This document shows, in pieces, positions 24,079 through 60,226 of a DNA stretch of 60,226 bases (the first letter of the stretch is position 1; each line of letters opens with the position of its first letter). The notes under the pieces are model-generated. The model ran no database searches. It saw nothing but the letters and a program-made list of their open reading frames with translations, and was not told the DNA's origin. The stretch is taken from IMG/VR virus record IMGVR_UViG_3300045988_163836, one strand, 5' to 3'. Position numbers and translations under genes: made by a program. This stretch comes from a virus.

Positions 24079-24226
24079 GGGGTCGTGGCCAAGCGGTAAG
24101 GCCGGCAACTTATCCAAGATTAGTTTAAATGGTAAAATAGTCTATGCGCAAGAAAGATGTGAGTTCAAACCTAACATTTTGGGCCAAATTGCCAAATCGT
24201 TGGTTCGAATCCAACCGGCCCCACCA
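24079..24226 (+). tRNA. tRNA with a 73-nt insertion in the anticodon loop
   Basis: Acceptor GGGGTCG/CGGCCCC with A73 and CCA. D-arm GCCAAGCGGTAAGGC. Anticodon stem GGCAA (24104-08) pairs with TTGCC (24189-93). T-arm GTTGG-TTCGAAT-CCAAC. The loop is split as 5' CTTAT... and ...GCCAAA 3'. The insertion ends pair as CCAAGA/TTTTGG. The mature anticodon is ambiguous (UCA, CCA or other). Confidence 0.6.
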
Positions 24227-24638: not shown

Positions 24639-24891
24639 ATTGGTCTTATACATGGGGTTTCCGATTTGAACTAGGTAGATTAGTCACCTACCGTTGGCAA
24701 TAGACCAATTAAAAATAAACTGAGGCAAAGGGAAATCGGGTTTTAATATATATAGCTATAAAGAAATTTTATAGTTAGCTATGATGAACTTCATAGTAAA
24801 ATCCTCTTGTAATCAAGCTAATTGGGAGAGGGGTAGCGCGGGAACGGGGAGAAGCGCGCTATAAAAGGTGAAATACTTCTTTCCACCATAT

Positions 24892-25122: not shown

Positions 25123-25575
25123 TAATTAAAGCTGGGAAATAATAGTCGCCCATAACTAATTATTTAATATAGGACTATTATTAAAGGTTATTTAAGTTAA
25201 AGAAATGCGGTTGAAGTTATTACTTACTTGATTATAAAATAACATGACCGCAAGACGAGTTTATAGTGTGCGTCTATAAATGATCTGCCTATATGTTATC
25301 TTTTTATACTTTCTCTTTGGTTGTTTCTTGACATATAAGTAAAAACGGAAAGGGAGTTAAAGGTTCAGCTAAAAAACTGGTTTGTTTTTTGATAAGGTTT
25401 TAAAAATTAGGTGACAAAATCTTATTTGAGTGACGCTGCTCAGGAGGGTCCGGAACCTCTGAAATGCGATATGCGGTTGTAGCTCAGTCGAAAAAAATAA
25501 ATTTGGACGAAGTGAGCTAATTAATTACTTTTATTTCCTAAATATAATAGAATAAAATAGAAAGAAGGTAATTAA

Positions 25576-26139
25576 TTGCCAAAAGCCTTAGATTTAACGA
25601 ATAAAGTATTTGGAAATTTAAAATGTATTTAGAAAGCTCCTACTAGAAATAAAAAGACTTATTGGGAATGTGAATGTTTATTATGCGGAACTCATAAAAT
25701 TATTTAGACTTGTCATTTAACAGATGGTAGAACTACAAGTTGCGGGTAGCATAATGAAAATAATCTTTTTAATATTAGCAAAGAAAAGCAATGCTTAATT
25801 TGTGGAGAAAAGTTTATAACTAATAATCCTAAAAGAAAATATTGTTTTAATTGTTCTCCAGACAATATATCAGCAGCTGACCGATTAAGACATATCAAAA
25901 GAATTATTAAACATAAATTAATAGTATATAAAGGCGGAAAATGTGAAATTTGTGGTTATGATAAATGTGAAGGAGCTTTATAGTTTCATCATTTAAATCC
26001 GCAAGAAAAAGAATTTACAATTTCTCAAGTAAATTTAAATGAAGGTGAATTTTCTTTTGAAAATTTATTAAAAGAAGTTGATAAATGTTAGTTATTATGT
26101 GCTAATTGTCATGCTGAACAACATTATAAAATTGAATGA
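25576..26139 (+). CDS. HNH homing endonuclease
   Basis: TTG start right after an in-frame TAA. The N-terminal module LTNKVFGNLKCIQ...WECECLLCG...TSCGQ matches the repeats of the 7750 gene. HNH motif CEICGYDKCEGALQFHHLNP...N...LLCANCHAEQH. There are 5 in-frame TAGs, each codon checked against the 60-nt line boundaries. TGA 26137 overlaps the tRNA-Lys 5' end. Confidence 0.7.
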
Positions 26140-26212: not shown

Positions 26213-26780
26213 GGTCAAGTTTGAGAAATTTCATAAAGCATCGCTGACGTTAAATGGCACTTATATGAAAACGCGTAAGTAATATAAGATAGCAAAATTC
26301 TCGTAGTTCATCCTATTAGAGAATCTTAAAGAGTAATGGCAAGATCATATTGCGGGAGACCGTGCGTATGAGATACCAATAAAGGTAGCACATCTTGTGT
26401 TGAACAAGATAAAAGATGGAAAGGATACCTGCCATGTTTGGACAGCAAAAGAAGGCGTTGAATGTAATCGAAAAACATTCCGTTGGTTCTTAGGGGAGCG
26501 ACGTAACAGTGAAACCCGAGGTTTGAGTTACCTTGTCCAAACGCTATGTATAGTCAAAGTCTAGGCAACAAGGCTTTAATTAGAGTTAAAATTGTTTTAA
26601 TTAAACTCATACTTGTGGAAATCAAGCAGATCCACTTTACTGGGCCTACTGTAAAAGCCAGTTTGATATAGCCTCCATACCCAATGAGGAATTTTTATAA
26701 AAGTCTATTTAATTTTTCTTGGCAGTTTAATTAAGTAGACTATATGCGGGATTAGCTCAGCTGGTTAGAGCGTTTGGTTT

Positions 26781-27260
26781 ACTCGGCAAACTCTTTTAAT
26801 TTCTATTTTATGACACGAAATTCTAAAGAAGTCGGTAATTTAGCAGAATTACAATGTATTACTGGTCTTTATGAACTGGGATGTGATATTTCATTTCCTT
26901 TTGGAAATAGTCAAAAGTATGATTTAATTATGGATTATAAAGGTAAACTTTATAAAGTTCAAGTTAAACATGCTAAAGATGAATATACATTAGGAGAAAT
27001 TACACATTTTTCTTTTGCTACGAGATGGCAAAGTCATAATACGACTGGTTATAAAAAAACTCCATACACAAAAAATGATATTGATTTTTTCGCTACTTAT
27101 CACCAAGGAAAAGTTTATTTAATTCCTGTTGAAGAATGTAGCGGAGCTACTAAATCTATTCGTTATACCCCCCCTAAAAATGGACAACGAATTGGTATTA
27201 ATTTTGCTCAAGATTATTTGGCGGAGGAGGTGTTGAAGAAATTGTAAGAGCATTGCTAAG
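26781..27260 (+). other. intervening sequence in a tRNA anticodon loop (not group I), carrying a PD-(D/E)XK ORF
   Basis: About 480 nt, almost all of it ORF 26810..27247. This is too short for a group I core. Its termini form a helix stacked on the anticodon stem. Confidence 0.5.
26810..27247 (+). CDS. PD-(D/E)XK-fold nuclease-like protein encoded in a tRNA insertion (paralog 1 of 3)
   Basis: MTRNSKEVGNLAELQCITGLYELGCDISFPFGNSQKYDLIMDYKGKLYKVQVKHA has the motif D-x(n)-(D/E)-x-K. It aligns along its full length with the ORFs at 56076..56519 and 57052..57477. Confidence 0.6.
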   Translation: MTRNSKEVGNLAELQCITGLYELGCDISFPFGNSQKYDLIMDYKGKLYKVQVKHAKDEYTLGEITHFSFATRWQSHNTTGYKKTPYTKNDIDFFATYHQGKVYLIPVEECSGATKSIRYTPPKNGQRIGINFAQDYLAEEVLKKL

Positions 27261-27307
27261 TAATCCAAGAGGTCATTGGTTCGAATCCAATATCCTGCAC
27301 CAATAAA

Positions 27308-27347
27308 TTTGAAAATTTAAAAAAAATATTATATAATATATATATAA
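27308..27347 (+). promoter_or_regulatory. phage promoter consensus copy
   Basis: TTGAAAATTTAAAAAAAATATTATATAATATATATATAAT, followed by an RBS and ATG 27368. Confidence 0.5.
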
Positions 27348-27367
27348 TAATAAAGGAGATATTTGAA

Positions 27368-27535
27368 ATGGCAACTACTAAAAAACCTGCAATTAAAATG
27401 GATAATACAGAGTTGAACGAGTATCTTCTGTTTCGTCGTCGTAGATCTATTGTGCCTGCCAAGAAAGGTAAGGGTATGGAATATGATAGGGCGAAAGAAA
27501 AAGAGAAATCTGAAAAAATGATTTCTGATGAATAA
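27368..27535 (+). CDS. small basic protein (55 aa)
   Basis: RBS aaaggaga lies upstream. Lys/Arg-rich. The TAA stop abuts tRNA-Glu. Confidence 0.35.
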   Translation: MATTKKPAIKMDNTELNEYLLFRRRRSIVPAKKGKGMEYDRAKEKEKSEKMISDE

Positions 27536-27537
27536 AT

Positions 27538-27614
27538 CGGCGCATAGACAAATAGGTATAGTCACTACCCTTTCAAGGTAGAATGTAGGGGTTCGATCCC
27601 CCTTGCGCTGACCA
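27538..27614 (+). tRNA. tRNA-Glu (UUC)
   Basis: Acceptor CGGCGCA/TGCGCTG with one G.U pair. Anticodon arm CTACC-CTTTCAA-GGTAG. T-arm AGGGG-TTCGATC-CCCCT. A73 and CCA. Confidence 0.65.
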
Positions 27615-27863: not shown

Positions 27864-27995
27864 GTCATCTAATATTCACAACCGCCACGAGGTAGATGAT
27901 GGGTAATGCTAATAGTGGATAAAACGAAAATCGGGCAAAGCAAGTTAAACTCCTTAAAGTTTTTATCAAATATAGTAGAAAAGGAGTTGAATTAA

Positions 27996-28628
27996 ATGCC
28001 TAAAAAATTAACTCAAGAAGAATTTGAGCAAAGAGTTTATGAATGCGTTGGAGATAAATATTCTGTTATAAGCGAATATAATGGAAAATCTAAACCAATA
28101 GATTTAAAGTGTAATATTCATAACATTATATTTCAAGTATCGGCAGAGTGTTTTATGCGAGGTCCAAAAGAAATAAGATGTTCTTGTCCTAAATGTTCAG
28201 AAGAAAAGAAAAATGAAAAATTTTCTATAAATAGAACAGAATTAGAATGTGCTTATTGCGGAAGAAAATTTATTCGTTCAAATTCTAAATTAAATAATTC
28301 AAAAAGTGGAATATATTTTTGTTGTAGAGAACATAAAGATTTGGCTCAAAGAATAGATTTCGGATTAAAAGAAATTCAGCCAAATCATTATGGAAATGCT
28401 GTTGAAAATATTCATAACTATCGTAAAAATGCTTTTCGATATTATTCTCATAAATGTGCAGTCTGTGATTGGAATGAAGATGAAGATATCTTAGAAGTTC
28501 ATCATATTGATGAAAATCGAGATCATAATGAACTATCTAATTTAATTATTCTTTGTCCTATATGTCATAGAAAACTTAGTTCACATAAATATAAATTGAT
28601 TGATAGAGAACAAATTGTTCTTTGTTAA
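27996..28628 (+). CDS. HNH homing endonuclease
   Basis: Motif EVHHIDENRDHNELSNLIILCPICH. N-terminal Cys/His clusters. No in-frame TAG. Free-standing between tRNAs. Confidence 0.7.
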   Translation: MPKKLTQEEFEQRVYECVGDKYSVISEYNGKSKPIDLKCNIHNIIFQVSAECFMRGPKEIRCSCPKCSEEKKNEKFSINRTELECAYCGRKFIRSNSKLNNSKSGIYFCCREHKDLAQRIDFGLKEIQPNHYGNAVENIHNYRKNAFRYYSHKCAVCDWNEDEDILEVHHIDENRDHNELSNLIILCPICHRKLSSHKYKLIDREQIVLC

Positions 28629-29162: not shown

Positions 29163-29289
29163 GAGATACATTAATCAAGCCTCCACGGGGCGTATCTTGG
29201 GTAATGCTAATTGATTAAAAAATTTTTGGTCGCGGAAAATTAATTTTGCAACCAAAATTTCCATAATATTATGGAGGAGATAATAATTA

Positions 29290-29939
29290 TGGCTTATATT
29301 TATTAGATAACAAATAATATTAATGGAAAAATTTATGTTGGTAAAACATTAAAAAATAATATTTAGGAACGTTGGAAAGAACATTTAAGAGATTATAAAA
29401 AATCTAAATATGAAAAACGTCCTTTATATAACGCAATAAATAAATATGGTCCAGAAAATTTTTCTATTAAGGAATTAGAAGAATGTTCTGCTGAAGAAGC
29501 TAGCGAAAAAGAAATTTATTGGATTGAGAAATTAAACTCTTTTAAATATGGATATAATGCTACTAAAGGAGGAGATGGCAAGATAAAATATGACCATCAA
29601 AAAATTTTAGAAGCATTAAGAATAAATCCACGTCCAATTGAAATAGCTAAATTATTTAATTGTAGTTGTGATTTAGTTCAATAGATAGCTAAAGAACACC
29701 AAATTTAGATAATTAATCAAAGTAATGAATAGATGAAAAAAGAAAAATCCAAAAGTATTAGGCAATATAATAAAAATGGAATATTAATTAATACTTTTGA
29801 TTCTGTAGCAGAAGCTGGACAATGGTGTTTTGAAAATAAAAAATGTCTAAATTATAATTCTGGAGTTAGAAGTCATATTGCTGAATGTGCAAATGGAAAA
29901 CGTAAAACAGCATATGGTTATATCTGGAAATATATATGA
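29290..29939 (+). pseudogene. GIY-YIG homing endonuclease, frameshifted (1-nt shorter T-run near 29467-29470)
   Basis: MAYIYQITNNINGKIYVGKT...ERWKEH is the GIY-YIG motif. The paralog at 54788 reads ...GAAAATTTTTCTATT... with 5 T. This copy has 4 T. That splits the protein between the 29290 frame and the frame of ORF 29733..29939, which carries the C-terminal domain. Confidence 0.6.
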
Positions 29940-30585: not shown

Positions 30586-30991
30586 GCGGTATCATATAGA
30601 GAACCTTTCCGTGGTGATACTATTTAAACTAATCTCTATGAAACTTATTTCCACTTTTTTAAGTTTCTATGGTTAAACCCTGTTGAGGGCAAAGACTACA
30701 GGGTATTCCTTTCCATCCCTCATACATTAAGACTCATTTTCAGCAAACTTTTGCCTGCAAAGGTTCTACATACTTATTTATTACTAATAGATGAAAAAGT
30801 ATAATAAAGAAAATAAAGTATATTTTGAAAAGTTTTTTCTTTTTAGCTAGTTTAGTAAGCTAAATTCCGCGTTTTTATTTTGGCTTTTCAATGAGTCTTG
30901 TTTTTTAAAATAATTGGTATCGCTAAGCTTCATGGTAATTGTGGCGTATTTAAATCATAGATAGTTAAGGGTCTATAGCCAATTATAATAT

Positions 30992-31080
30992 GCGGAATTA
31001 ACTTGCCCGGCGGTAAGCCTTGTCTTGAAAACAAGTGGTCCTGTGACAGGGATGGGGATCGACACCTCAGTTCCGCGCCA
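30992..31080 (+). tRNA. tRNA-Ser (UGA)
   Basis: Acceptor GCGGAAT/GTTCCGC. Anticodon arm CTTGT-CTTGAAA-ACAAG. Long variable arm TCCTGT-GA-CAGGGA. T-arm TGGGG-ATCGACA-CCTCA. G73 and CCA. Confidence 0.7.
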
Positions 31081-31117
31081 CTCGTTTCAAATTCGTTCAT
31101 TGCATTTCATCCTTTCT

Positions 31118-31162
31118 GTAAAGATGGACTGATTAGATTAATCAGTCCATCTTTTTTTTTAT
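31118..31162 (+). terminator. rho-independent terminator
   Basis: AAAGATGGACTGATTAGATTAATCAGTCCATCTTT followed by 9 T. Confidence 0.7.
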
Positions 31163-31311
31163 ATATTTTAAAGACAGTAGGTTATAGGGGTTCGGGCCGA
31201 CTTGGACCATTAAAACCGAATGCTTGAATTAAAATTCCATTTAAGAAATTTTCGGTCCAACAGGTATAGAGCAATATAAAATAATTTTAAATATGAAAGG
31301 AGAAGAACAAT

Positions 31312-31425
31312 ATGAAAATGTTTATTCTTTCATATAAGGGCGGCAAAGATGGCGGCGACATTGATAAAGAAGATACTTCCAAGTCAACGGGCGGCTGGGA
31401 TGGCGGCTCTATAGATGATGATTAA
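31312..31425 (+). CDS. small Gly/Asp-rich protein
   Basis: RBS aaaggagaag lies upstream. 37 aa. Confidence 0.3.
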   Translation: MKMFILSYKGGKDGGDIDKEDTSKSTGGWDGGSIDDD

Positions 31426-31442
31426 AGAAAGGAGAACACGAG

Positions 31443-32516
31443 ATGGCTGAAATTATTAAATTAAGACGCGGTAAATCAACTAGCTGGTCTAAAAAGAATA
31501 TAATTCTTGCAGCTGGTGAAATCGGCGTAGAACTTGATACACATTAGATTAAAGTCGGCGATGGTTCAACCCCTTGGAATGAACTATCTTATGTAGGCGG
31601 AACTAAAGTTGTTAATGTTCAAGAATACACTGATAATCCTGCGGTTGTAGATGGTGTGCCTTATCAATCTATTGATGTGGCATTTATGAAAGCTCCAGCA
31701 GGAAGTACAATTCGTCTTAATGCTAACTTTGATAACAGTGTTTCTATTGATAAAGCATTGACTATTGAATTAAATGGTAATGATATTATTAATAATGAAA
31801 AAACGCCAATAGATATCAAAGCAAACGGCGATTTAACTATTAAGGGCCAAGGTACTATTGAATGTAATAAGAATGAAAATGCCGCAGTTTTTAATAATGG
31901 TAATATTACTATTAATAATGGTAAATTACAACGTACTACTGATGTAGCAGGTAATGGTTATTATACTGCTGTTAATCATGGCACTATGACAATCAATGGC
32001 GGCATGTTTATGAGTGGTGGCGAATTTTCTAGCATGATTGAAAATGGCTATTGGGATTATCACGCTGGTAATACTACTAATGGCTATGTTCAAGGCCAAA
32101 ATGCTGAAATGCCTACATTAACTATTAATGATGGTACATTCGCTGGCGGCTTATATGCTATAAAAAATGATGATAATGCTGTTTTAAATATTAATGGCGG
32201 CACATTCTATAATACTATTCTTGCTAATGGTAAGTCAATAACTATCACTGATGGGTATTTTGAAAATAGTAAGCCAAGTCAAGGCGAATATAATTTTTAT
32301 CTTCGTAAATTAAGTGAAGATTTAAATCCTCAAAATACATATATTAGCGGTGGTACATTTATTACTGCACAAGATAAGAATTTCAAGGTTGAGGGCGACC
32401 CTCGTATTGAAATTAGTGGTGGTCGTTTTAATAGAGAATTAGATCCTTCTTATCTAGCTCCTGGCTATAGACAAGTACTTGTCAATGGCTTCTATACTGT
32501 CTAGAAGGAGGAATAA
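31443..32516 (+). CDS. tail fiber or tailspike-like protein (N-terminal KxGDGxTxW module plus beta-helix-like repeats)
   Basis: N-terminus IIKLRRGKSTSWSKKNIILAAGEIGVELDTHQIKVGDGSTPWNELSYVGG. TAGs at 31548 and 32502 are read as Gln. Repeats of the form NGN/ITINNG/INGG follow. Confidence 0.55.
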
Positions 32517-32519
32517 TCT

Positions 32520-33035
32520 ATGGCTGATATCATCAAGTTCAAAAGAGGTCGATCAATTACATGGCGCGAAAAAAACTTATTGCTTAAGGATGGCGAGCCT
32601 GGATTTGAATTAGACACTCATAAACTGAAAATTGGTGATGGTAAAACCTTATGGAATGATTTACCATATATTGGTGGCGAAAGTGGTACAATTGATCTTC
32701 CTGATAATGTAATGGAATTTTTAGGCACAGTTGATACACTTCCAGCTACCGCTGAGGATGGAGAAATGTGTATTTATAATGGTAAATTATATATTTACGA
32801 TGGTAAATGGACAACTACAGAAACTTCCTCTCCAGCACAAAATTCTTTCAATTCTTTAGTAGATGCAATTAACTATATTACCTAGCATAATTGTGTTGGT
32901 CAAATTGTATCTATTTTTTAGAATAATAAATGGTTGCCTTATATTGTAGATGTAAATAATGATCTTGTACCTATTCAATATGGAGAAGATAGTTATGATA
33001 TCCTCAATGGCGGTGACGCAAATACTCTTAATTAA
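32520..33035 (+). CDS. tail fiber-associated protein (KIGDGKTLW module)
   Basis: IIKFKRGRSITWREKNLLLKDGEPGFELDTHKLKIGDGKTLWNDLPYIGG. TAGs at 32883 and 32919 extend the frame to TAA 33033. The C-terminus YDILNGGDANTLN resembles the end of 34302..36935. Confidence 0.5.
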
Positions 33036-54787: not shown

Positions 54788-55423
54788 ATGGCATACATTT
54801 ATTAGATAATAAATAATATTAATGGAAAAATTTATGTTGGTAAAACAGTAAAAAATAATATTTAGGAACGTTGGAAAGAACATCTTAAAGATTATAAAAA
54901 ACCTAGATGTGAAAAACGTCCTTTATATGACGCAATGAATAAATATGGTTCAGAAAATTTTTCTATTAAAGAGTTAGAGGAATGTCCATTAGAAGAACTT
55001 AATGATAAAGAAGTTTATTGGATTGAAAAATTAGGTTCTTTTAAATATGGATATAACGCTACAATTGGCGGAGATGGCAAACAATATATTGACTATGATT
55101 TAGTATGCGAAACATATAAGAATTTACAATGTATTGTAGATACTGCTAAACAATTAAATATTAGTGAAGATTCAGTTTCTAAAATTTTAAAATTATATAA
55201 AATTGATATTATTCCTAATGCTAAAATAGTTCAAAATAAGTATGGGAAAATAATTAATATGTATGATTTAAATGATAATTATTTAAGGACTTTTCCATCA
55301 ACAACTGAAGCAGCTAAATTTATGGTAGAAAATAAATTAACTAATTGTAAAATGACTACTATAAAACAACATATTTCTGAAGTATGCAAATGTAAACGAA
55401 ATACAGCTGCTAAGTTTAAATGA
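54788..55423 (+). CDS. GIY-YIG homing endonuclease (intact copy)
   Basis: MAYIYQIINNINGKIYVGKTVKNNIQERWKEH...YGYNATIGGDG. There are 3 in-frame TAGs. It is 75-80% identical to the frameshifted copy at 29290. Confidence 0.7.
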
Positions 55424-56048: not shown

Positions 56049-56527
56049 GGGAAAAGAGATTTTTGTCTAAAAAATATGTTAGATATTACTCAACAGAAAG
56101 GAACTGTAACAGAGTTAAGATGTATTCTTGATTTAACTAATCTTGGATATAGATGTTTAAAATCTGTTGATGAAAGTTCTAAATATGATGTAGTAGCTGA
56201 TATGGGGATGGGTAAATTTATCCGTATTCAATGTAAAACATCTTCTTGGGTTACTGATACAAAAGAACCTAATGTAGCTTTTGCAATTGCTACAAGTTGT
56301 ATTACCACTAATACAAAATCTACTACTCGTCATAAGTATTCAAAAGATGATATTGATTATTTTTATACTTGGTTTGAAGGCCAAGGATATTTAGTTTCCA
56401 TTGAAGAAGCTACTGGTGCAACTTTTAGATGGCGGTATGAATATCCTTCATCTGGTCAAAAACAGGGTATTCATATCGCTAATGATTACAAAATTGAGGA
56501 GGTCTTAAAGACAATCTAAGATTTTCC
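56049..56527 (+). other. intervening sequence in a tRNA anticodon loop (not group I), carrying a PD-(D/E)XK ORF
   Basis: Almost all of it is ORF 56076..56519. Confidence 0.5.
56076..56519 (+). CDS. PD-(D/E)XK-fold nuclease-like protein encoded in a tRNA insertion (paralog 2 of 3)
   Basis: ...SSKYDVVADMGMGKFIRIQCKTS... and ...IDYFYTWFEGQGYLVSIEEATGATFRWRYEYPSSGQKQGIHIANDYKIEEVLKTI align with 26810..27247. Confidence 0.6.
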   Translation: MLDITQQKGTVTELRCILDLTNLGYRCLKSVDESSKYDVVADMGMGKFIRIQCKTSSWVTDTKEPNVAFAIATSCITTNTKSTTRHKYSKDDIDYFYTWFEGQGYLVSIEEATGATFRWRYEYPSSGQKQGIHIANDYKIEEVLKTI

Positions 56528-56918
56528 TGGATCAAGAGGCCGTGAGTTCAAGTCTCGCCACTCGGACCATCAGGGTTCTGTTAAAGATACATAATTGAAA
56601 AGGATTGATCTCCCTAAGTAGATTTGTATTGGAATGAAAAAATGAGGTCTAGATGACACAGATAACCTCCCCTGAACCATCCCTTTTGTTAGTAGGTTGT
56701 CGGGGTTAAATAACTAACAGTAAAGACACACGCAGCAAATATTAGATAAAATCTATGTGTTATTGGTTCAAGTCCAATATTATCTCTGTTAAGATAATTC
56801 ATCCAAAGGGTAGGATAATAGTTAATTTATTTAATGTGTCTTGTAAATTTGAATTTTAAAAAAAAATATTATATAATATATAAGTAATCAATAAGAAATT
56901 ATTAATTACTTATAATTT

Positions 56919-56993
56919 ACTGGTGTCGCCAAGCGGTAAGGCACAGGACTTTGACTCCTGTATTCGTTGGTTCAAATCCAGCCACCAGTGCCA
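56919..56993 (+). tRNA. tRNA-Gln (UUG)
   Basis: Acceptor ACTGGTG/CACCAGT. D-arm GCC-AAGCGGTAAG-GC. Anticodon arm CAGGA-CTTTGAC-TCCTG. T-arm GTTGG-TTCAAAT-CCAGC. G73 and CCA. Confidence 0.75.
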
Positions 56994-57033
56994 ATATAGG
57001 TCAGTACAGTGTAATTGGTATCACCCCTGACTG

Positions 57034-57474
57034 GTTTGAAGGAGGTTCATTTTGTAGTCAAAAAGTAACAAAGATAAAGGACGTTTTGGATTAGCTATGG
57101 CTATTGCCTATTTCACTGACAAAGGCTATACAGTCTCAACTCCTTTAAATGATACTCAGTGGTATGATTTAATTATAGAACGAAATGGTAAATTTTAGAC
57201 AGTTCAATGTAAATGTACTGGAAGTTAGGATAATGTTATAATGTTAAGATCTTGCGGTGGTACTAAAGGAACTGTTTATGATAATGTTTTAAATCATTCT
57301 GAGCTTGATTTATTATTTTGTATAGATGTTCAAGGTAATATGTATGTAATTCCATTAAAAGAAATTTTAAAATCAGGAAATACAAAATAGATTACTTTAC
57401 GAACAGCTCCAACAAGCAATAATCAAGGCTTTTAGACTTATAAATTTCGAGTTCGATTCTCGTTTCAAACACCA
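57034..57474 (+). other. intervening sequence in a tRNA anticodon loop (not group I), carrying a PD-(D/E)XK ORF
   Basis: It carries the RBS GAAGGAGG and a TTG start at 57052. Confidence 0.5.
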
Positions 57475-57477
57475 TAA
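57052..57477 (+). CDS. PD-(D/E)XK-fold nuclease-like protein encoded in a tRNA insertion (paralog 3 of 3)
   Basis: TTG start. There are 5 in-frame TAGs. ...NDTQWYDLIIERNGKFQTVQCKCTGS... has the motif D...E.K. ...LDLLFCIDVQGNMYVIPLKE... aligns with the other two paralogs. Confidence 0.55.
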
Positions 57478-57584
57478 ATCAGGTGCTTAATGCGGTTGTT
57501 GGTTCAAGTCCAACCTGGCCTACCATTTAAAATAAAATTTGAAAATTTAAAAAAAATATTATATAATATATATATAATAAATGA

Positions 57585-58920
57585 ACTTTAAAAATTAAAT
57601 AATAATTTAATTACGGTTATAGTACAACTCAGTGCAGACTTAACACCATAAGGCTGAGAAATCGATCCACTCTGGCGGAGATTGTAGAATGGAATATTCA
57701 AAGGATACTTTGAAATTATTTCTAAATCTTTTGTAGTGATACATTAGATTCACGCATCGAAGGATGCGGCTACGGGGAGATTGTGCTGGGATAATCGCAT
57801 TTAAGGTCCTGTTCTTCTCGCTTCCATAATAGACAGCATTGTTAACAGCAATGCCGAATCCTTGTTAGGGTAAGGCTGGTAACCTTGCCAAACCAAGGAA
57901 ATACCAATAAGGAAGTTGGCAATTGATGTGGCGTAATCTACTATAAGAGAAGGTCAAGGGTCAAGTAGCCGAAATTTGCCAAGACAGTATGATATTAATT
58001 TAGTAAAAATTATTGGTAATACTATTCTGAATGGTCGGTGAAAGATAGAGGTAGTCAGTCCTCTGTGAGATTTGGCTTAGGCCGGGGCAAGAAGTTATGA
58101 AGTCGCTATTCATAGCTCAGACTTGTTTCCTTACTTACCTAATAAAATGAAGATTATTAACCAGTAGGGCGAAGGTCCGTAGTATAATTGTAATTAAGTT
58201 ATTATTTAATAACTTACGATTTCCTTTCCTGTTAAAAATAAATCATTAAATGATTTATTTGAAATGAATTATGTAGATGCTAATATAGGCGGTGGCTTGC
58301 ACATTAACCTCATTGGGTAGCCAATCCCACATCGTTAGAGGCCTCTGCGGAACCTGCTCCTATGGCTGTAGGGTTCTTACATAATCTAATCAAATAAGGT
58401 TGACTCGCCTGTTGTCCGGTGAAATGATATATCTGGAAACCGTACTGATACGTATCAGATATTTGATTAGCGTCCTAATCTTGGTTAATTAGGTAGTGGA
58501 ACAATACGCTAAACCAGCCAGCTCTCCACTATAAATAAGCTGAATAGGGATGTTTGTGGCTCACATACCAAAAAGCCATTACCAAGTGCGGAAATAAGAT
58601 CCTTGGTAGTCTCTCATATAAAGGCGTGGAAAATGAGACGTAATGGACTACGAAAAAGACATATAATAGGTAGAGTTATTATTTATTGTGTTAGATTATA
58701 GAATGAAAATCCTATTATTAAAAACTGTATATTCTACTTCCTATTGGTAGGTATTATAAGTTTAATGGTAGGTCAAAAATTTAATATATTCCAATAGCTA
58801 ATGAATGAGGTAGGCTGAAGTACTTAGTGGCGTGGGCAGGCATAGAGGCGACCTATAAATGGTTAGTGGCTATGGTGTAGTTTATTCCTATTGGATATAT
58901 TAATTTTTGTAAATATATTC
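57585..58920 (+). ncRNA. candidate large structured non-coding RNA (ORF-free, GC-richer than surroundings, with its own promoter)
   Basis: About 1.3 kb with no ORF in any frame, even when TAG is read as sense. About 40% GC against about 30% locally. It holds many long-range complementary segments, for example GGCTGGTAACCTTGCC and GTACTGATACGTATCAGATAT. A promoter consensus lies at 57538-57577. It is flanked by tRNAs. Confidence 0.35.
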
Positions 58921-59087
58921 TACTGAATAATTTGATTTTAAAAAAATTATTTAGTATAATATATTTACAAGATAAAGAGAAGTTAGGATAATTTCTCTAA
59001 GACAGTTTCAGTAAATTTTTATTAAAGATAATCATATGTTTTTTGGTTCATAAGAAGATACTTTATTAAACTGTCTTGTATATATAT

Positions 59088-59162
59088 TCCGGCTTTGGGT
59101 AACGGTTAGCTCAGCTGACTCTAAATCAGCAAGTCTCAGTTCGACTCTGAGAGCCGGTGCCA
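59088..59162 (+). tRNA. amber suppressor tRNA (anticodon CUA), Gln-type
   Basis: Acceptor TCCGGCT/AGCCGGT with a 1:72 mismatch. D-arm GGGT-AACGGTTA-GCTC. Anticodon arm GCTGA-CTCTAAA-TCAGC, so anticodon CUA. T-arm CTCAG-TTCGACT-CTGAG. Discriminator G73 and a weak 1:72 pair are GlnRS identity features. CCA is encoded. Confidence 0.7.
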
Positions 59163-59295: not shown

Positions 59296-60033
59296 TTGAC
59301 TTAGCAAACGTTAAAATGGAGTGCCTAAGAGGAAACTCTTAGAGCAGAAGTTGGCTAAAACGGTGAATGGCTAAGAGAACGCCGTGCTAAGTTTTGGAAC
59401 ACATTCTAAAAAATTGGACGACACTCATTAAAATACCTTTTTTAATTTTTAAGTAATAATGAAAGAGAGGTAATATAAATGAGAACTGATATTTTAGAAC
59501 GCAAAGAAGAAATTGAGCAATGGATTACTGAAGGTAAAACTAAAGCTCAAATGGCAAGAGAATTGGGTTGTAATCCTAAAACAATTAATCCAGTATTAAA
59601 AAAGCTTGGTCTTGAATATGCTGGAAATCAAGGTTGTAAAGGATTGTCAAAACCCAATGGACATGAATTATCTTTGTTAGAATACTTAGAAAAAAGTATT
59701 GATATACAGAGTAATAAAGTAAGAAAAAAACTTCTTGATGAAGGTTATAAAGAGTACAAATGTGAATGTTGTGGATTAACCGAATGGTTAGGAGAACCAA
59801 TTCCTTTAGAACTTCATCATAAAGATGGAAATCATTTTAATAATGAATTAGATAATTTCCAATTATTATGCCCAAATTGTCATGCAAAAACATCTTCTTA
59901 TCGTGGAAAAAATTGTTCCAAATAAATGTGTAGAGAGTATATACCAACTATCTAAGTGCAAGTCGTGCATATGATAAAGACGTATTCCAGACTACAACAC
60001 AAAAATGTGGCTATGGTGACATAGAGTAGTAAG
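59296..60033 (+). mobile_element. group I intron (738 nt) with an HNH homing-endonuclease ORF
   Basis: The 5' exon ends in U. The intron ends in G (omega G at 60033). A P7-like CAGACTA element lies near its 3' end. It contains ORF 59479..59925. Confidence 0.6.
59479..59925 (+). CDS. HNH homing endonuclease (intron-encoded)
   Basis: LELHHKDGNHFNNELDNFQLLCPNCH is the HNH motif. The N-terminal HTH-like region reads TEGKTKAQMARELGCNPKTI. Confidence 0.7.
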   Translation: MRTDILERKEEIEQWITEGKTKAQMARELGCNPKTINPVLKKLGLEYAGNQGCKGLSKPNGHELSLLEYLEKSIDIQSNKVRKKLLDEGYKEYKCECCGLTEWLGEPIPLELHHKDGNHFNNELDNFQLLCPNCHAKTSSYRGKNCSK

Positions 60034-60226
60034 AAAATCCCTCGGTGGCAACACCATGCGGGTTCGAGTCCCGCCACCGGCACCATTAAACAATAGTAGC
60101 TAACGGCAGTTGAACAGACGGGTCGGGGCTAACATAGAAAGGTTAGCAGGTAGTACGGCGGTAGGTAACAAATCCGCAAGTCGAAATGAGTCGGGAAATC
60201 CGAATGATACGGCTTAGATGTTTTCC

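What the first reader, a model, noticed from the sequence alone, without database searches (positions are those of the whole stretch)
57585..58920. Promoter-driven, ORF-free, GC-richer tracts embedded in the tRNA island: candidate large structured RNAs
The tract at 57585..58920 is about 1.3 kb with its own promoter consensus at 57538. Smaller tracts lie at 26215..26745 (about 530 nt), 25130..25560 (about 430 nt), 24640..24890 and 30600..30990. None has an ORF even under code 15. All are clearly GC-richer than the coding DNA and are full of long-range complementary segments, for example GTTTGGACAG...CTTGTCCAAAC at 26450/26545. Large ornate RNAs such as GOLLD and ROOL are known to sit beside tRNA genes in phages. 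No consensus for those RNAs could be recalled to test here.
Basis: inference. Interest (0 to 1): 0.65.

Follow-up and report, generated by a model that had tools for sequence, protein, structure and literature searches.

The report
ROOL plus an undescribed large RNA
The 1.3-kb gene-free tract in this phage's tRNA island holds two large folded RNAs in tandem, a known ROOL RNA followed by a ~635-nt RNA from a conserved family that is absent from Rfam 15 and from the papers I could search.

Summary
The main observation holds. Window 57585..58920 is non-coding, follows a near-consensus promoter (57539..57567) and contains two structured RNAs on the + strand.

1. 57604..58197 is a full-length ROOL RNA (RF03087, 323 bits against a gathering score of 99).
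2. 58267..58901 has no Rfam match at E<=10. It belongs to a family ("X-RNA") that I recovered from about 130 places (97 distinct sequences) in large uncultivated gut, rumen and other phage contigs, always inside tRNA arrays.
   - Its 215-nt 5' core has nine nested helices plus two pseudoknots. With 97 sequences, 93.9% of cells pair against 72.8% after shuffling, and 38 of 49 pairs change on both sides.
   - G·U outnumbers A·C 796 to 38, which fixes the strand.
   - There are two subtypes. Type A (~450 nt) sits wedged between tRNAs. Type B (550-770 nt, the window's type) ends in a covarying 13-bp closing helix plus a U-run, and follows a ROOL gene in 20 of 23 informative cases.

Of the smaller tracts, 26213..~26340 belongs to another conserved ~135-nt structured family. 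The others stay unresolved. X-RNA's function is unknown. I infer a trans-acting structural RNA of the phage's tRNA/translation module.

The parts
57539..57567 (+). Promoter-like site TTGAAA-17-TATAAT in front of ROOL. It belongs to a repeated phage promoter type (TTGAnTTT...TATAATATATA).
   Evidence: 11 of 12 matches. The same type recurs at 58932..58960 and 56849..56877, and in distant phages. This is a consensus match only. Transcription was not shown.
57604..58197 (+). ROOL RNA (Rfam RF03087), full length
   Evidence: 323 bits against a gathering score of 99.1, E=7e-75, model positions 1-574 of 574, not truncated. 98-99% identical copies occur in L025 and L057.
58198..58261 (+). AT-rich spacer with two small hairpins (58198..58213 and 58237..58261). 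No U-run follows them, so read-through into the next RNA is likely.
   Evidence: Read from the sequence. No terminator call on the + strand. Inference.
58267..58901 (+). X-RNA, type B: a ~635-nt structured RNA of a family not in Rfam 15
   Evidence: No Rfam hit at E<=10. My covariance model R1 scores 172 bits, E=1e-39, with a single copy in the window. Homologues were found.
58267..58481 (+). X-RNA universal 5' core (215 model positions). Helices: P1 58268-75/58378-85; P2 58288-94/58330-36; P3 58349-58/58364-77; P4 58386-96/58460-70; P4a 58397-99/58408-10; P5 58411-13 and 58416-19 / 58433-36 and 58438-40; P6 58445-48/58455-58.
   Evidence: Coordinates. Covariation (97 sequences, 93.9% paired against 72.8% shuffled and 36-46% slid).
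58308..58341 (+). Pseudoknot PK1: CCTC 58308-11 pairs with GAGG 58338-41, crossing P2.
   Evidence: 76 of 97 sequences have a match of 4 bp or more, against 42 expected, in more than 25 different sequence versions. The window has CCUC/GAGG where L030 has UCCC/GGGA.
58441..58452 (+). Pseudoknot PK2: CGT 58441-43 pairs with ACG 58450-52 in the P6 loop.
   Evidence: 96-97 of 97 sequences paired. Pair types are CG 63, GC 19, AU 10 at one position and UA 82, AU 14 at another.
58354..58368 (+). Invariant P3 loop CTGCTCCTATGGCTG
   Evidence: Ten of the 15 bases were required by my search pattern, so their invariance is partly by ascertainment.
58420..58432 (+). Invariant P5 loop TGAAATGATATAT (two T-loop-like pentamers, UGAAA and UGAUA)
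   Evidence: This motif was also part of the search pattern. The T-loop reading is from memory and was not tested.
58282..58292 (+). Conserved junction AATATAGGCGG (at least 97% conserved; not part of any search pattern)
58482..58783 (+). Variable middle region of X-RNA. It holds the non-conserved 101-codon open frame 58513..58818.
58784..58901 (+). X-RNA type-B 3' domain. Closing helix H1 58784-97/58887-901; loop-E-like strand GAATGAGGTAGG 58803-14; hairpin arm 58839-80 ending in GGTGTAG.
   Evidence: On 22 sequences, 90.8% of cells pair against 72.7% shuffled, and 26 of 27 pairs change on both sides. The three window-clade rows are misaligned at H1 in that alignment, so the window's own H1 was read by eye.
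58904..58908 (+). U-run directly after the closing helix: putative end of the ROOL + X-RNA transcription unit
   Evidence: Sequence. The same helix plus U-run occurs in nearly all type-B members. Termination itself is inferred.
58932..58960 (+). Next promoter-like site (TTGATT-17-TATAAT), in front of the suppressor tRNA(CUA) at 59088..59162
26213..26340 (+). 'Y' element: a ~130-nt structured RNA directly after tRNA-Lys, from a second Rfam-absent family with invariant CTCGTAGTTCA and a GAGAATCTTAAAGAG loop
   Evidence: 19 viral contigs; 24 predicted pairs, 17 with compensatory changes in 9 sequences
24639..24891 (+). 253-nt tract wedged between tRNA-Phe and tRNA-Leu: an unresolved candidate RNA
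   Evidence: z = -2.36. In two ~90% relatives, 2 pairs are compensatory, 4 are consistent and 0 are broken. No distant homologue in the 325 loci held at that point. No Rfam hit.

Best explanation
The tract is one promoter-to-terminator unit that encodes two large non-coding RNAs.

The first RNA is an ordinary member of the ROOL family.

The second, here called X-RNA, belongs to a previously uncatalogued family of complex-folded RNAs. The family lives in the tRNA arrays of large uncultivated phages.
- It has a universal 215-nt 5' core with nine nested helices, two pseudoknots and three near-invariant unpaired motifs.
- It has a variable middle and a 3' domain that comes in two forms.
- Type A copies abut tRNAs on both sides, so RNase P and RNase Z most likely cut them out of the tRNA precursor.
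- Type B copies, including the window's, end in a long closing helix plus a U-run. They are genetically coupled to ROOL in the order ROOL, then sometimes tRNA-Tyr, then X-RNA.

Shown here: family membership, structure, strand, genomic context and the link to ROOL.

Inferred: that X-RNA is co-transcribed with ROOL, that it accumulates as a stable RNA, and that it acts in trans. I expect its invariant loops to contact a conserved partner, either in an RNA-only or RNA-protein assembly of the kind ROOL and GOLLD form, or by docking to tRNA or ribosome components.
For: ROOL: 323 bits, full length.

X-RNA is absent from known families.
- No Rfam family at E<=10.
- No Rfam hit over the element in 25 related loci searched at gathering threshold.
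- No blastn match in 50,697 phage records.

X-RNA is a real family.
- The exact 15-mer found first relatives.
- The gapped pattern found 40 viral, 12 MAG and 84 metagenome stretches.
- Pooled, these give 130 occurrences and 97 distinct sequences with mean pairwise identity 62%.

Structure.
- On a structure-blind MAFFT alignment of 29 sequences, 89.8% of cells pair against 70.0% after shuffling (0 of 500 shuffles reach it) and 39-45% after sliding. 41 of 55 pairs change on both sides.
- On 97 sequences aligned to the model, 93.9% pair against 72.8%, and 38 of 49 pairs change on both sides.
- PK2 is paired in 96-97 of 97 sequences with several pair types.
- The 3' domain pairs in 90.8% of cells against 72.7%, and 26 of 27 pairs change on both sides.

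Strand: G·U 796 against A·C 38.

Not coding: frameshifting indels in close relatives.

Context.
- 67 of 97 members have a same-strand tRNA within 400 nt upstream, 30 of them within 15 nt. 78 of 97 have a tRNA downstream.
- ROOL linkage: type B 18 of 23 by pattern, plus 2 more by cmscan. Type A 0 of 22.
- One 402-kb phage carries two ROOL-X cassettes (L050 and L034).
Against: - No expression data. The promoter and terminator are consensus or pattern matches only.
- The invariance of the two loop motifs is partly circular, because my database patterns required them. More divergent members would have been missed.
- No functional evidence of any kind. The resemblance to ROOL and GOLLD is one of genomic niche and complexity, not of sequence.
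- Most ROOL loci lack X-RNA: only 6 of about 90 have it. Type A lacks ROOL. So X-RNA's function cannot depend on ROOL.
- The literature search covers open-access papers and bioRxiv only. A description elsewhere cannot be excluded.
Confidence: 0.8

Rival explanations
1. X-RNA is a ribozyme rather than a scaffold. It might cleave itself away from the abutting tRNAs, or act on tRNA. Its invariant junction and loop nucleotides would then form an active site.
For: - The 5' core has 48 positions conserved at 97% or more, clustered in unpaired junctions and loops of a pseudoknotted fold.
- Its 5' end lies 0-15 nt from a tRNA 3' end in 30 members.
- Small self-cleaving-ribozyme-type hits occur in the same islands: an HDV-like sub-threshold hit right after tRNA-Ala at 27864..27931, and RAGATH motifs.
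Against: - No similarity to any ribozyme family in Rfam.
- The topology is not that of the HDV ribozyme, group I introns or RNase P RNA (read from the structure).
- RNase P and RNase Z already explain release from tRNA precursors.
- At 340-770 nt it is far larger than any known self-cleaver.
Confidence: 0.12
2. X-RNA is a cis-acting part of the tRNA operon. It would be a structured spacer, processing platform or terminator that organises tRNA maturation, with no function as a free RNA.
For: It is always inside tRNA arrays on the tRNA strand. Type B ends in a helix plus U-run that looks like a terminator.
Against: - A spacer does not need a 215-nt core with two pseudoknots that stays recognisable at 45-62% identity across phages.
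- Most tRNA junctions in these arrays are only a few nt long.
- Each array carries one copy, or one per ROOL cassette, rather than one at many junctions.
Confidence: 0.08
3. X-RNA is a very divergent member of an already known family (GOLLD, RNase P RNA, tmRNA, group I intron or 5S rRNA) that the Rfam models fail to detect.
For: - It shares GOLLD's niche next to phage tRNAs and GOLLD's split into a conserved and a variable half (PMC12286853).
- The type-B arm GGUAGUGUGCGG...CGCGUACAGAGUAGGG resembles E. coli 5S rRNA helix IV and loop E, GAUGGUAGUGUGGGG...CAUGCGAGAGUAGGG.
Against: - No hit to any of these models, even at E<=10 on a 671-nt query with lax filters.
- A real GOLLD in L010 shares none of the X motifs, and model R1 does not hit it.
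- The flanking tRNAs are complete, so it is not an intron.
- Its 5' and 3' ends do not pair, unlike RNase P RNA and 5S rRNA.
Confidence: 0.04
4. The tract downstream of ROOL is a decayed gene or a protein-coding gene read in an unusual code.
For: A 101-codon open frame lies at 58513..58818 under code 15.
Against: - 1-nt indels occur in relatives at 89-97% identity, with no third-position bias.
- Covarying helices with many G·U pairs span the region.
Confidence: 0.01

Closest known systems
ROOL RNA (Rfam RF03087; Weinberg et al. 2017, PMC5737381; cryo-EM nanocage, Kretsch et al. 2025, PMC12286853)
   Same: Window 57604..58197 is a bona fide member. X-RNA shares ROOL's niche (phage tRNA islands, same strand), its size class (340-770 nt), its multi-junction pseudoknotted fold and its lack of a known protein partner. 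Type B X-RNA is physically linked to ROOL.
   Different: X-RNA has no sequence or model similarity to ROOL (no second ROOL hit). It has far more invariant nucleotides than ROOL is reported to have (10 highly conserved nucleotides; PMC5737381). It also occurs without ROOL (type A).
GOLLD RNA (Rfam RF02032)
   Same: A large RNA next to or between phage tRNAs. Both have one conserved domain and one variable domain.
   Different: No GOLLD model hit at E<=10. In GOLLD the 3' half is the conserved one (PMC12286853), whereas in X-RNA it is the 5' core. A true GOLLD in L010 shares no motifs with X-RNA.
Bacterial 5S rRNA loop E / helix IV arm
   Same: Type-B members carry GAUGG(N)AAG and (R)AGUA(R)G strands across a covarying helix. 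They also carry a hairpin GGUAG-UGUGCGG...CGCGUAC-AGAGUAGG that is nearly identical in its ends to E. coli 5S GGUAG-UGUGGGG...CAUGCG-AGAGUAGG.
   Different: No 5S model hit. The rest of the domain has a different topology. Loop E is a widespread structural module, so this is a resemblance and not evidence of homology or of binding to ribosomal protein bL25.
Other large bacterial RNAs of unknown function (OLE, raiA, HEARO)
   Same: Complex, strongly covarying, and found only by comparative genomics.
   Different: They have different contexts, being chromosomal or transposon-linked. None of their models hits X-RNA. Partial OLE hits seen in related loci lie elsewhere in those islands.

Membership tests
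ROOL (RF03087), for 57604..58197 | Score at or above Rfam's gathering threshold over the full model | tested here: met
   323 bits against 99.1, model positions 1-574 of 574, not truncated
ROOL (RF03087), for 57604..58197 | Length of about 580 nt, with the consensus multi-junction, pseudoknotted secondary structure | tested here: met
   594 nt. The cmscan alignment keeps nearly all consensus pairs, with few non-canonical marks.
ROOL (RF03087), for 57604..58197 | Located near tRNA genes in a phage or prophage | tested here: met
   tRNAs at 56919 and 59088. Related contigs are IMG/VR viral contigs.
ROOL (RF03087), for 57604..58197 | Forms a homo-oligomeric RNA nanocage | not testable with these tools
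   Known from PMC12286853. It needs cryo-EM or biophysics.
ROOL, for X-RNA 58267..58901 | Match to the ROOL covariance model | tested here: not met
   No second ROOL hit at E<=10
GOLLD (RF02032), for X-RNA | Match to the GOLLD covariance model (conserved 3' region) | tested here: not met
   No hit at E<=10. None over X-RNA in 25 related loci.
GOLLD (RF02032), for X-RNA | Adjacent to tRNAs in a phage or prophage | tested here: met
   This is a shared niche, not a diagnostic feature.
Group I / group II intron, for X-RNA | Interrupts a host gene, and matches an intron core model | tested here: not met
   The flanking tRNAs are complete. No intron model hit at E<=10.
RNase P RNA / tmRNA / 6S, for X-RNA | Match to the family covariance model | tested here: not met
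   No hit at E<=10 in 58255..58925
5S rRNA, for the X-RNA 3' domain | Match to RF00001 and the three-arm 5S topology | tested here: not met
   No hit. Only the loop-E / helix-IV-like arm resembles 5S rRNA.
X-RNA (family defined here) | 215-nt core with P1-P6, PK1 and PK2, and the motifs AAUAUAGGCGG, CUGCUCCUAUGGCUG and UGAAAYGAUAYAU | tested here: met
   R1 scores 172 bits over the full model. All helices are present in the window.
X-RNA type B | 3' domain closed by a ~13-bp helix followed by a U-run, with a ROOL gene upstream | tested here: met
   H1 58784-97/58887-901, U-run 58904-08, ROOL 70 nt upstream

The most novel reading that the evidence does not exclude
X-RNA is a third class of large 'ornate' phage RNA with a biochemical role of its own in taking over translation. 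Two readings fit the data. It could be a partner of the ROOL nanocage, as cargo, cap or co-assembly, in the conserved ROOL-X cassette. Or it could dock to tRNA or to ribosome components through its invariant T-loop-like loop (UGAAAUGAUAUAU) and its 5S loop-E / helix-IV-like arm.
Probability: 0.15. Interest if true: 0.9.

Novelty: new variant of a known kind. Interest (0 to 1): 0.78.

Why it matters
Only two classes of very large, complex RNAs (GOLLD and ROOL) were known to sit in phage tRNA islands. Both were recently shown to build RNA-only nanocages, and the function of those cages is unknown.

A third family now appears in the same niche. It is well supported, has about 100 distinct members and two architectures, and one architecture is genetically coupled to ROOL. 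This gives three things.
- A new target for structure determination.
- A natural handle on ROOL's function, through a conserved two-RNA cassette that can be co-expressed.
- Evidence that the tRNA arrays of large gut and rumen phages hold further unknown structured RNAs. A second, 135-nt family turned up in the same window.

Tried and rejected
- blastn of the tract and of a type-A member against 50,697 phage records gave no match. There are no cultured relatives.
- The exact 15-mer scan returned mostly chance hits and had to be filtered by blastn.
- Single-sequence MFE z-scores were uninformative.
- Rfam E<=10 searches of both tRNA islands gave only chance-level hits for the tracts. The best hit in X-RNA was DUF2800 at E=1.4, which I rejected.
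- The GOLLD idea was rejected after reading a true GOLLD in L010.
- RNase P-like and HDV-like topologies were considered by eye and rejected.
- PHROGs annotation of six window proteins gave no useful classification of the phage.
- No homologue of 24639..24891 or 25123..25575 exists in the 325 tRNA-island loci held at that point. With only two ~90% relatives, their structure cannot be judged.
- Four full-text literature searches found no description of a third large RNA in tRNA islands.
- I did not attempt ROOL-to-X intermolecular covariation. There are too few independent cassettes, and no Infernal for ROOL in the sandbox.
Full report
**Context**

The window is a phage segment with all genes on the + strand. 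It reads TAG as a sense codon. Summed plus-strand ORF length rises from 13.0k to 19.2k aa when TAG is read through, and a suppressor tRNA(CUA) lies at 59088..59162. The window is 100% identical over the 10.6 kb compared to a 188-kb metagenome scaffold, ENA ERZ28568211 scaffold_35. It has two tRNA islands, at about 24-31 kb and 54.6-60.2 kb. Both are riddled with homing-endonuclease-type genes (Pfam tags).

**The observation**

The focal tract 57585..58920 follows a near-consensus promoter, TTGAAA-17-TATAAT, at 57539..57567. It has no credible ORF. One 101-codon frame is open under code 15 at 58513..58818. It is broken by 1-nt indels in relatives that are 89-97% identical, and its substitutions show no codon-position bias. 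GC content is 36.3%, against 31.1% for the window and 22.3% for the neighbouring genes, but other coding blocks reach 33-34%. 'GC-richer' is therefore only a local contrast. Single-sequence folding is unremarkable, with z = -1.39.

**First RNA: ROOL**

An Rfam 15 scan gives a full-length ROOL (RF03087) at 57604..58197. It scores 323 bits against a gathering score of 99.1, with E about 1e-74, and it matches model positions 1-574. This is an ordinary member of a known family. ROOL is described as a ~581-nt RNA of phages and prophages that often lies near tRNAs (PMC5737381). It forms an RNA-only nanocage of unknown function (PMC12286853).

**Second RNA: X-RNA**

The remaining ~700 nt has no Rfam match even at E<=10. 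This holds for a 2.8-kb query and for a 671-nt query, and the best chance-level hit has E=1.4.

I found relatives in four steps.
- A conserved ROOL pattern fetched 80 of 90 matching viral loci.
- blastn showed that a 402-kb phage (L050, L034) and L018 carry a 76%-identical block downstream of their ROOL genes.
- Reading those loci revealed shared blocks: AATATAGGCGG, CTGCTCCTATGGCTG, GGTGAAAYGATAYATC and CTGAYACGTATCAG.
- The exact 15-mer, and then the gapped pattern CTCCTATGGC-N40-70-TGAAAYGATAYAT, retrieved 40 viral contigs, mostly 75-400 kb. The pattern also retrieved 12 contigs binned into gut or rumen MAGs of many phyla, which I take to be phage contigs, and 84 metagenome stretches from human gut, rumen, sludge and other sources.

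Pooled, this gives 130 occurrences and 97 distinct sequences with a mean pairwise identity of 62%. There is no match in 50,697 deposited phage genomes.

**Structure of the 5' core**

A MAFFT alignment of 29 sequences at less than 93% identity was made without any structural input (A1).
- RNAalifold predicts 42 pairs on it, and 30 of them show compensatory changes.
- My model has 11 helices, two of which are pseudoknots, and 55 pairs.
- 89.8% of cells form standard pairs. The figure is 70.0% after shuffling (0 of 500 shuffles reach the observed value) and 39-45% when partners are slid by 1-3 columns.
- 41 pairs change on both sides. The covariation score is 0.565, against 0.199 shuffled and about 0.12 slid.

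I built a covariance model, R1, with 215 positions and 49 pairs.
- It finds one copy in the window, at 58267..58481, with 172 bits and E=1e-39.
- It finds all 97 distinct members at 126-199 bits.
- On that model-fitted 97-sequence alignment, 93.9% of cells pair against 72.8% shuffled, and 38 of 49 pairs change on both sides.

The pseudoknots and the strand are also supported.
- PK2 pairs CGU with the ACG in the P6 loop. It is paired in 96-97 of 97 sequences, with CG, GC and AU variants.
- PK1 crosses P2. It is present in 76 of 97 sequences against 42 expected, in more than 25 sequence versions.
- G·U pairs outnumber A·C 796 to 38, so the RNA is read from the tRNA strand.
- 48 core positions are at least 97% conserved. 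About 21 of these were required by my search pattern, so their invariance is partly circular. AAUAUAGG-GG and the bases flanking both loops were not required.

**The 3' part and the two subtypes**

nhmmer with hand-made seeds splits the family into three groups.
- Type A has 40 members. It ends 396-562 nt from the start, typically at about 447 nt. Its 3' motif is GGAUGYGGUGUGGCUAUGC...GGCAUAGAGUAG.
- Type B has 32 members and ends at 551-769 nt.
- The remaining 25 are variant or truncated copies.
- The shortest complete members are about 320-390 nt (L228, L169, L264), so the 5' core is the universal part.

Type B includes the window. Its 3' domain is closed by a 13-bp long-range helix followed by a U-run. 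It contains a 4-bp helix that brackets the GAUGGNAAG and RAGUAR strands, and a two-helix hairpin arm. On 22 sequences (A2), 90.8% of cells pair against 72.7% shuffled and 29-44% slid, and 26 of 27 pairs change on both sides. The three window-clade rows are misaligned at the closing helix in A2.

In the window the domain runs as follows.
- The closing helix is 58784..58797 with 58887..58901.
- The U-run is 58904..58908.
- The next promoter is 58932..58960.

The hairpin arm of many type-B members reads GGUAG-UGUGCGG...CGCGUAC-AGAGUAGG. Its ends are nearly those of E. coli 5S rRNA helix IV and loop E. I verified the 5S segment. There is no 5S model hit. I treat this as a shared loop-E-type module and not as homology.

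**Genomic context**
- 67 of 97 members have a same-strand tRNA within 400 nt upstream, 30 of them within 15 nt. 78 of 97 have a tRNA downstream within 1.1 kb. Type A is typically wedged exactly between two tRNAs.
- Type B is preceded by tRNA-Tyr(GUA) 14 times. It is followed, after the U-run and a promoter, by tRNA-Thr(UGU) 16 times or by the suppressor tRNA(CUA) 8 times.
- Type B is linked to ROOL. 18 of 23 members with at least 1.5 kb of upstream sequence have the ROOL pattern within 3.5 kb upstream. cmscan adds two more, L315 and L227. The figure for type A is 0 of 22.
- The 402-kb phage has two ROOL-X cassettes.
- The converse does not hold. Only 6 of about 90 ROOL loci contain X-RNA.

**Interpretation**

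The following are shown.
- 57604..58197 is ROOL.
- 58267..58901 is a member of a new, strongly covarying, non-coding RNA family that is specific to phage tRNA arrays.
- The family has two architectures, one of them coupled to ROOL.

The following are inferred.
- In the window, promoter 57539 drives ROOL and X-RNA as one unit that ends at the helix plus U-run.
- Type A copies are released by RNase P and RNase Z.
- The RNA acts in trans through its invariant loops.

I favour a structural or assembly role, or a role in binding tRNA or the ribosome, by analogy with ROOL and GOLLD. Pull-downs are reported to link GOLLD to ribosomes (PMC12286853). A ribozyme or a purely cis-acting role cannot be excluded.

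**Smaller tracts**
- 26213..~26340 lies directly after tRNA-Lys and is 78% identical to a segment of L018. The pattern CTCGTAGTTCA-N-GAGAATCTTAAAGAG finds 19 viral contigs. The element is about 135 nt and is usually flanked by tRNAs. It has 24 predicted pairs, 17 with compensatory changes in 9 sequences, and no Rfam hit. The rest of that tract, 26346..26743, is specific to the window's clade and gives mixed signals (6 compensatory and 17 broken pairs).
- 24639..24891 abuts tRNAs on both sides. It has z = -2.36 and no broken pairs in two close relatives, but no distant homologues.
- 25123..25575 (z = -0.86, 31% GC) and 30588..31442 show nothing that suggests a conserved structured RNA. Part of the former is the upstream region of an HNH gene that relative L327 lacks.

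**Novelty**

ROOL is known. For X-RNA I found no Rfam family in the 4,227 families of release 15. Four full-text searches also found no paper that describes a third large RNA of phage tRNA islands. That library does not hold most subscription-journal papers, so prior description cannot be excluded. I class X-RNA as a new variant of a known kind, namely the large ornate RNAs of phage tRNA islands. It is not a member of any known family.

Noticed in passing
window 56998..57527: tRNA-Tyr(GUA) is split exactly inside its anticodon. The 5' half ends ...CCCTGACTG at 57034, and the 3' half starts TAAATCAGG at about 57469. The ~435-nt insert is almost entirely a PD-(D/E)XK_5 endonuclease ORF (57097..57477), which leaves too little room for a group I core. 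L018 has the same tRNA intact, with the homologous ORF upstream of it.
   Followed up: partly
window 26746..27540; L326 3866..3916: A second tRNA 5' half at 26746..~26785 is followed by a homologous endonuclease ORF (to 27247). Relative L326 lacks this ~530-nt insert. Conversely, tRNA-Lys is split by ~735 nt in L326, and tRNA-Leu appears split in L327. Insertion polymorphisms of this kind in tRNA genes seem common in this phage group.
   Followed up: partly
window 24079..24223: Rfam calls a 145-nt 'tRNA' (46.6 bits) that ARAGORN missed. It looks like a tRNA with a ~72-nt insertion in the anticodon loop. L018 and L034 have a similarly interrupted tRNA right after ROOL.
   Followed up: no
window 60099..60211: RAGATH-33 RNA (RF03102; 139 bits against a gathering score of 120). 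It is preceded by a weak tRNA-like/tmRNA-like hit at 60015..60085. It is conserved in relatives L025, L030 and L300. RAGATH-27 sits near X-RNA in L122.
   Followed up: no
window 27864..27931: Sub-threshold match to the HDV-like ribozyme of F. prausnitzii (32 bits, gathering score 44, E=0.005). It starts at the last base of tRNA-Ala, which is the position expected for a ribozyme that trims a tRNA 3' end.
   Followed up: no
L018 10084..10167; L034 2050..2137; L107 187..276; L227 6152..6241: Partial hits to the OLE RNA model (about 53 bits, gathering score 50, model positions ~437-595 only) inside phage tRNA islands. They may be a shared sub-motif or a further unknown RNA.
   Followed up: no
window 24020, 24495, 56849, 57539, 58932: A repeated promoter type, TTGAnTTT...TATAATATATA, often followed by ATAAGATAAAGA. 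It is conserved in sequence between this phage and distant large phages (L018, L034, L107, L204, L235, L236).
   Followed up: no
window 25576..26139, 26790..27247, 27996..28628, 29271..29939, 54788..55423, 56076..56519, 57097..57477, 59479..59925: Eight homing-endonuclease-type genes (3 HNH, 2 GIY-YIG, 3 PD-(D/E)XK_5) are packed into the two tRNA islands. Several are absent at the same site in relatives of ~90% identity.
   Followed up: partly
window 31443..33035: Two adjacent genes carry Mtd_N domains (the major tropism determinant of diversity-generating retroelements). I did not look for a reverse transcriptase or a template repeat.
   Followed up: no
L040 2753..2879 (- strand): A weak hit of the X-RNA core model (41.8 bits, E=1e-7) spans the whole model in only 127 nt, in a ROOL-bearing contig. 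It may be a reduced or divergent relative.
   Followed up: no
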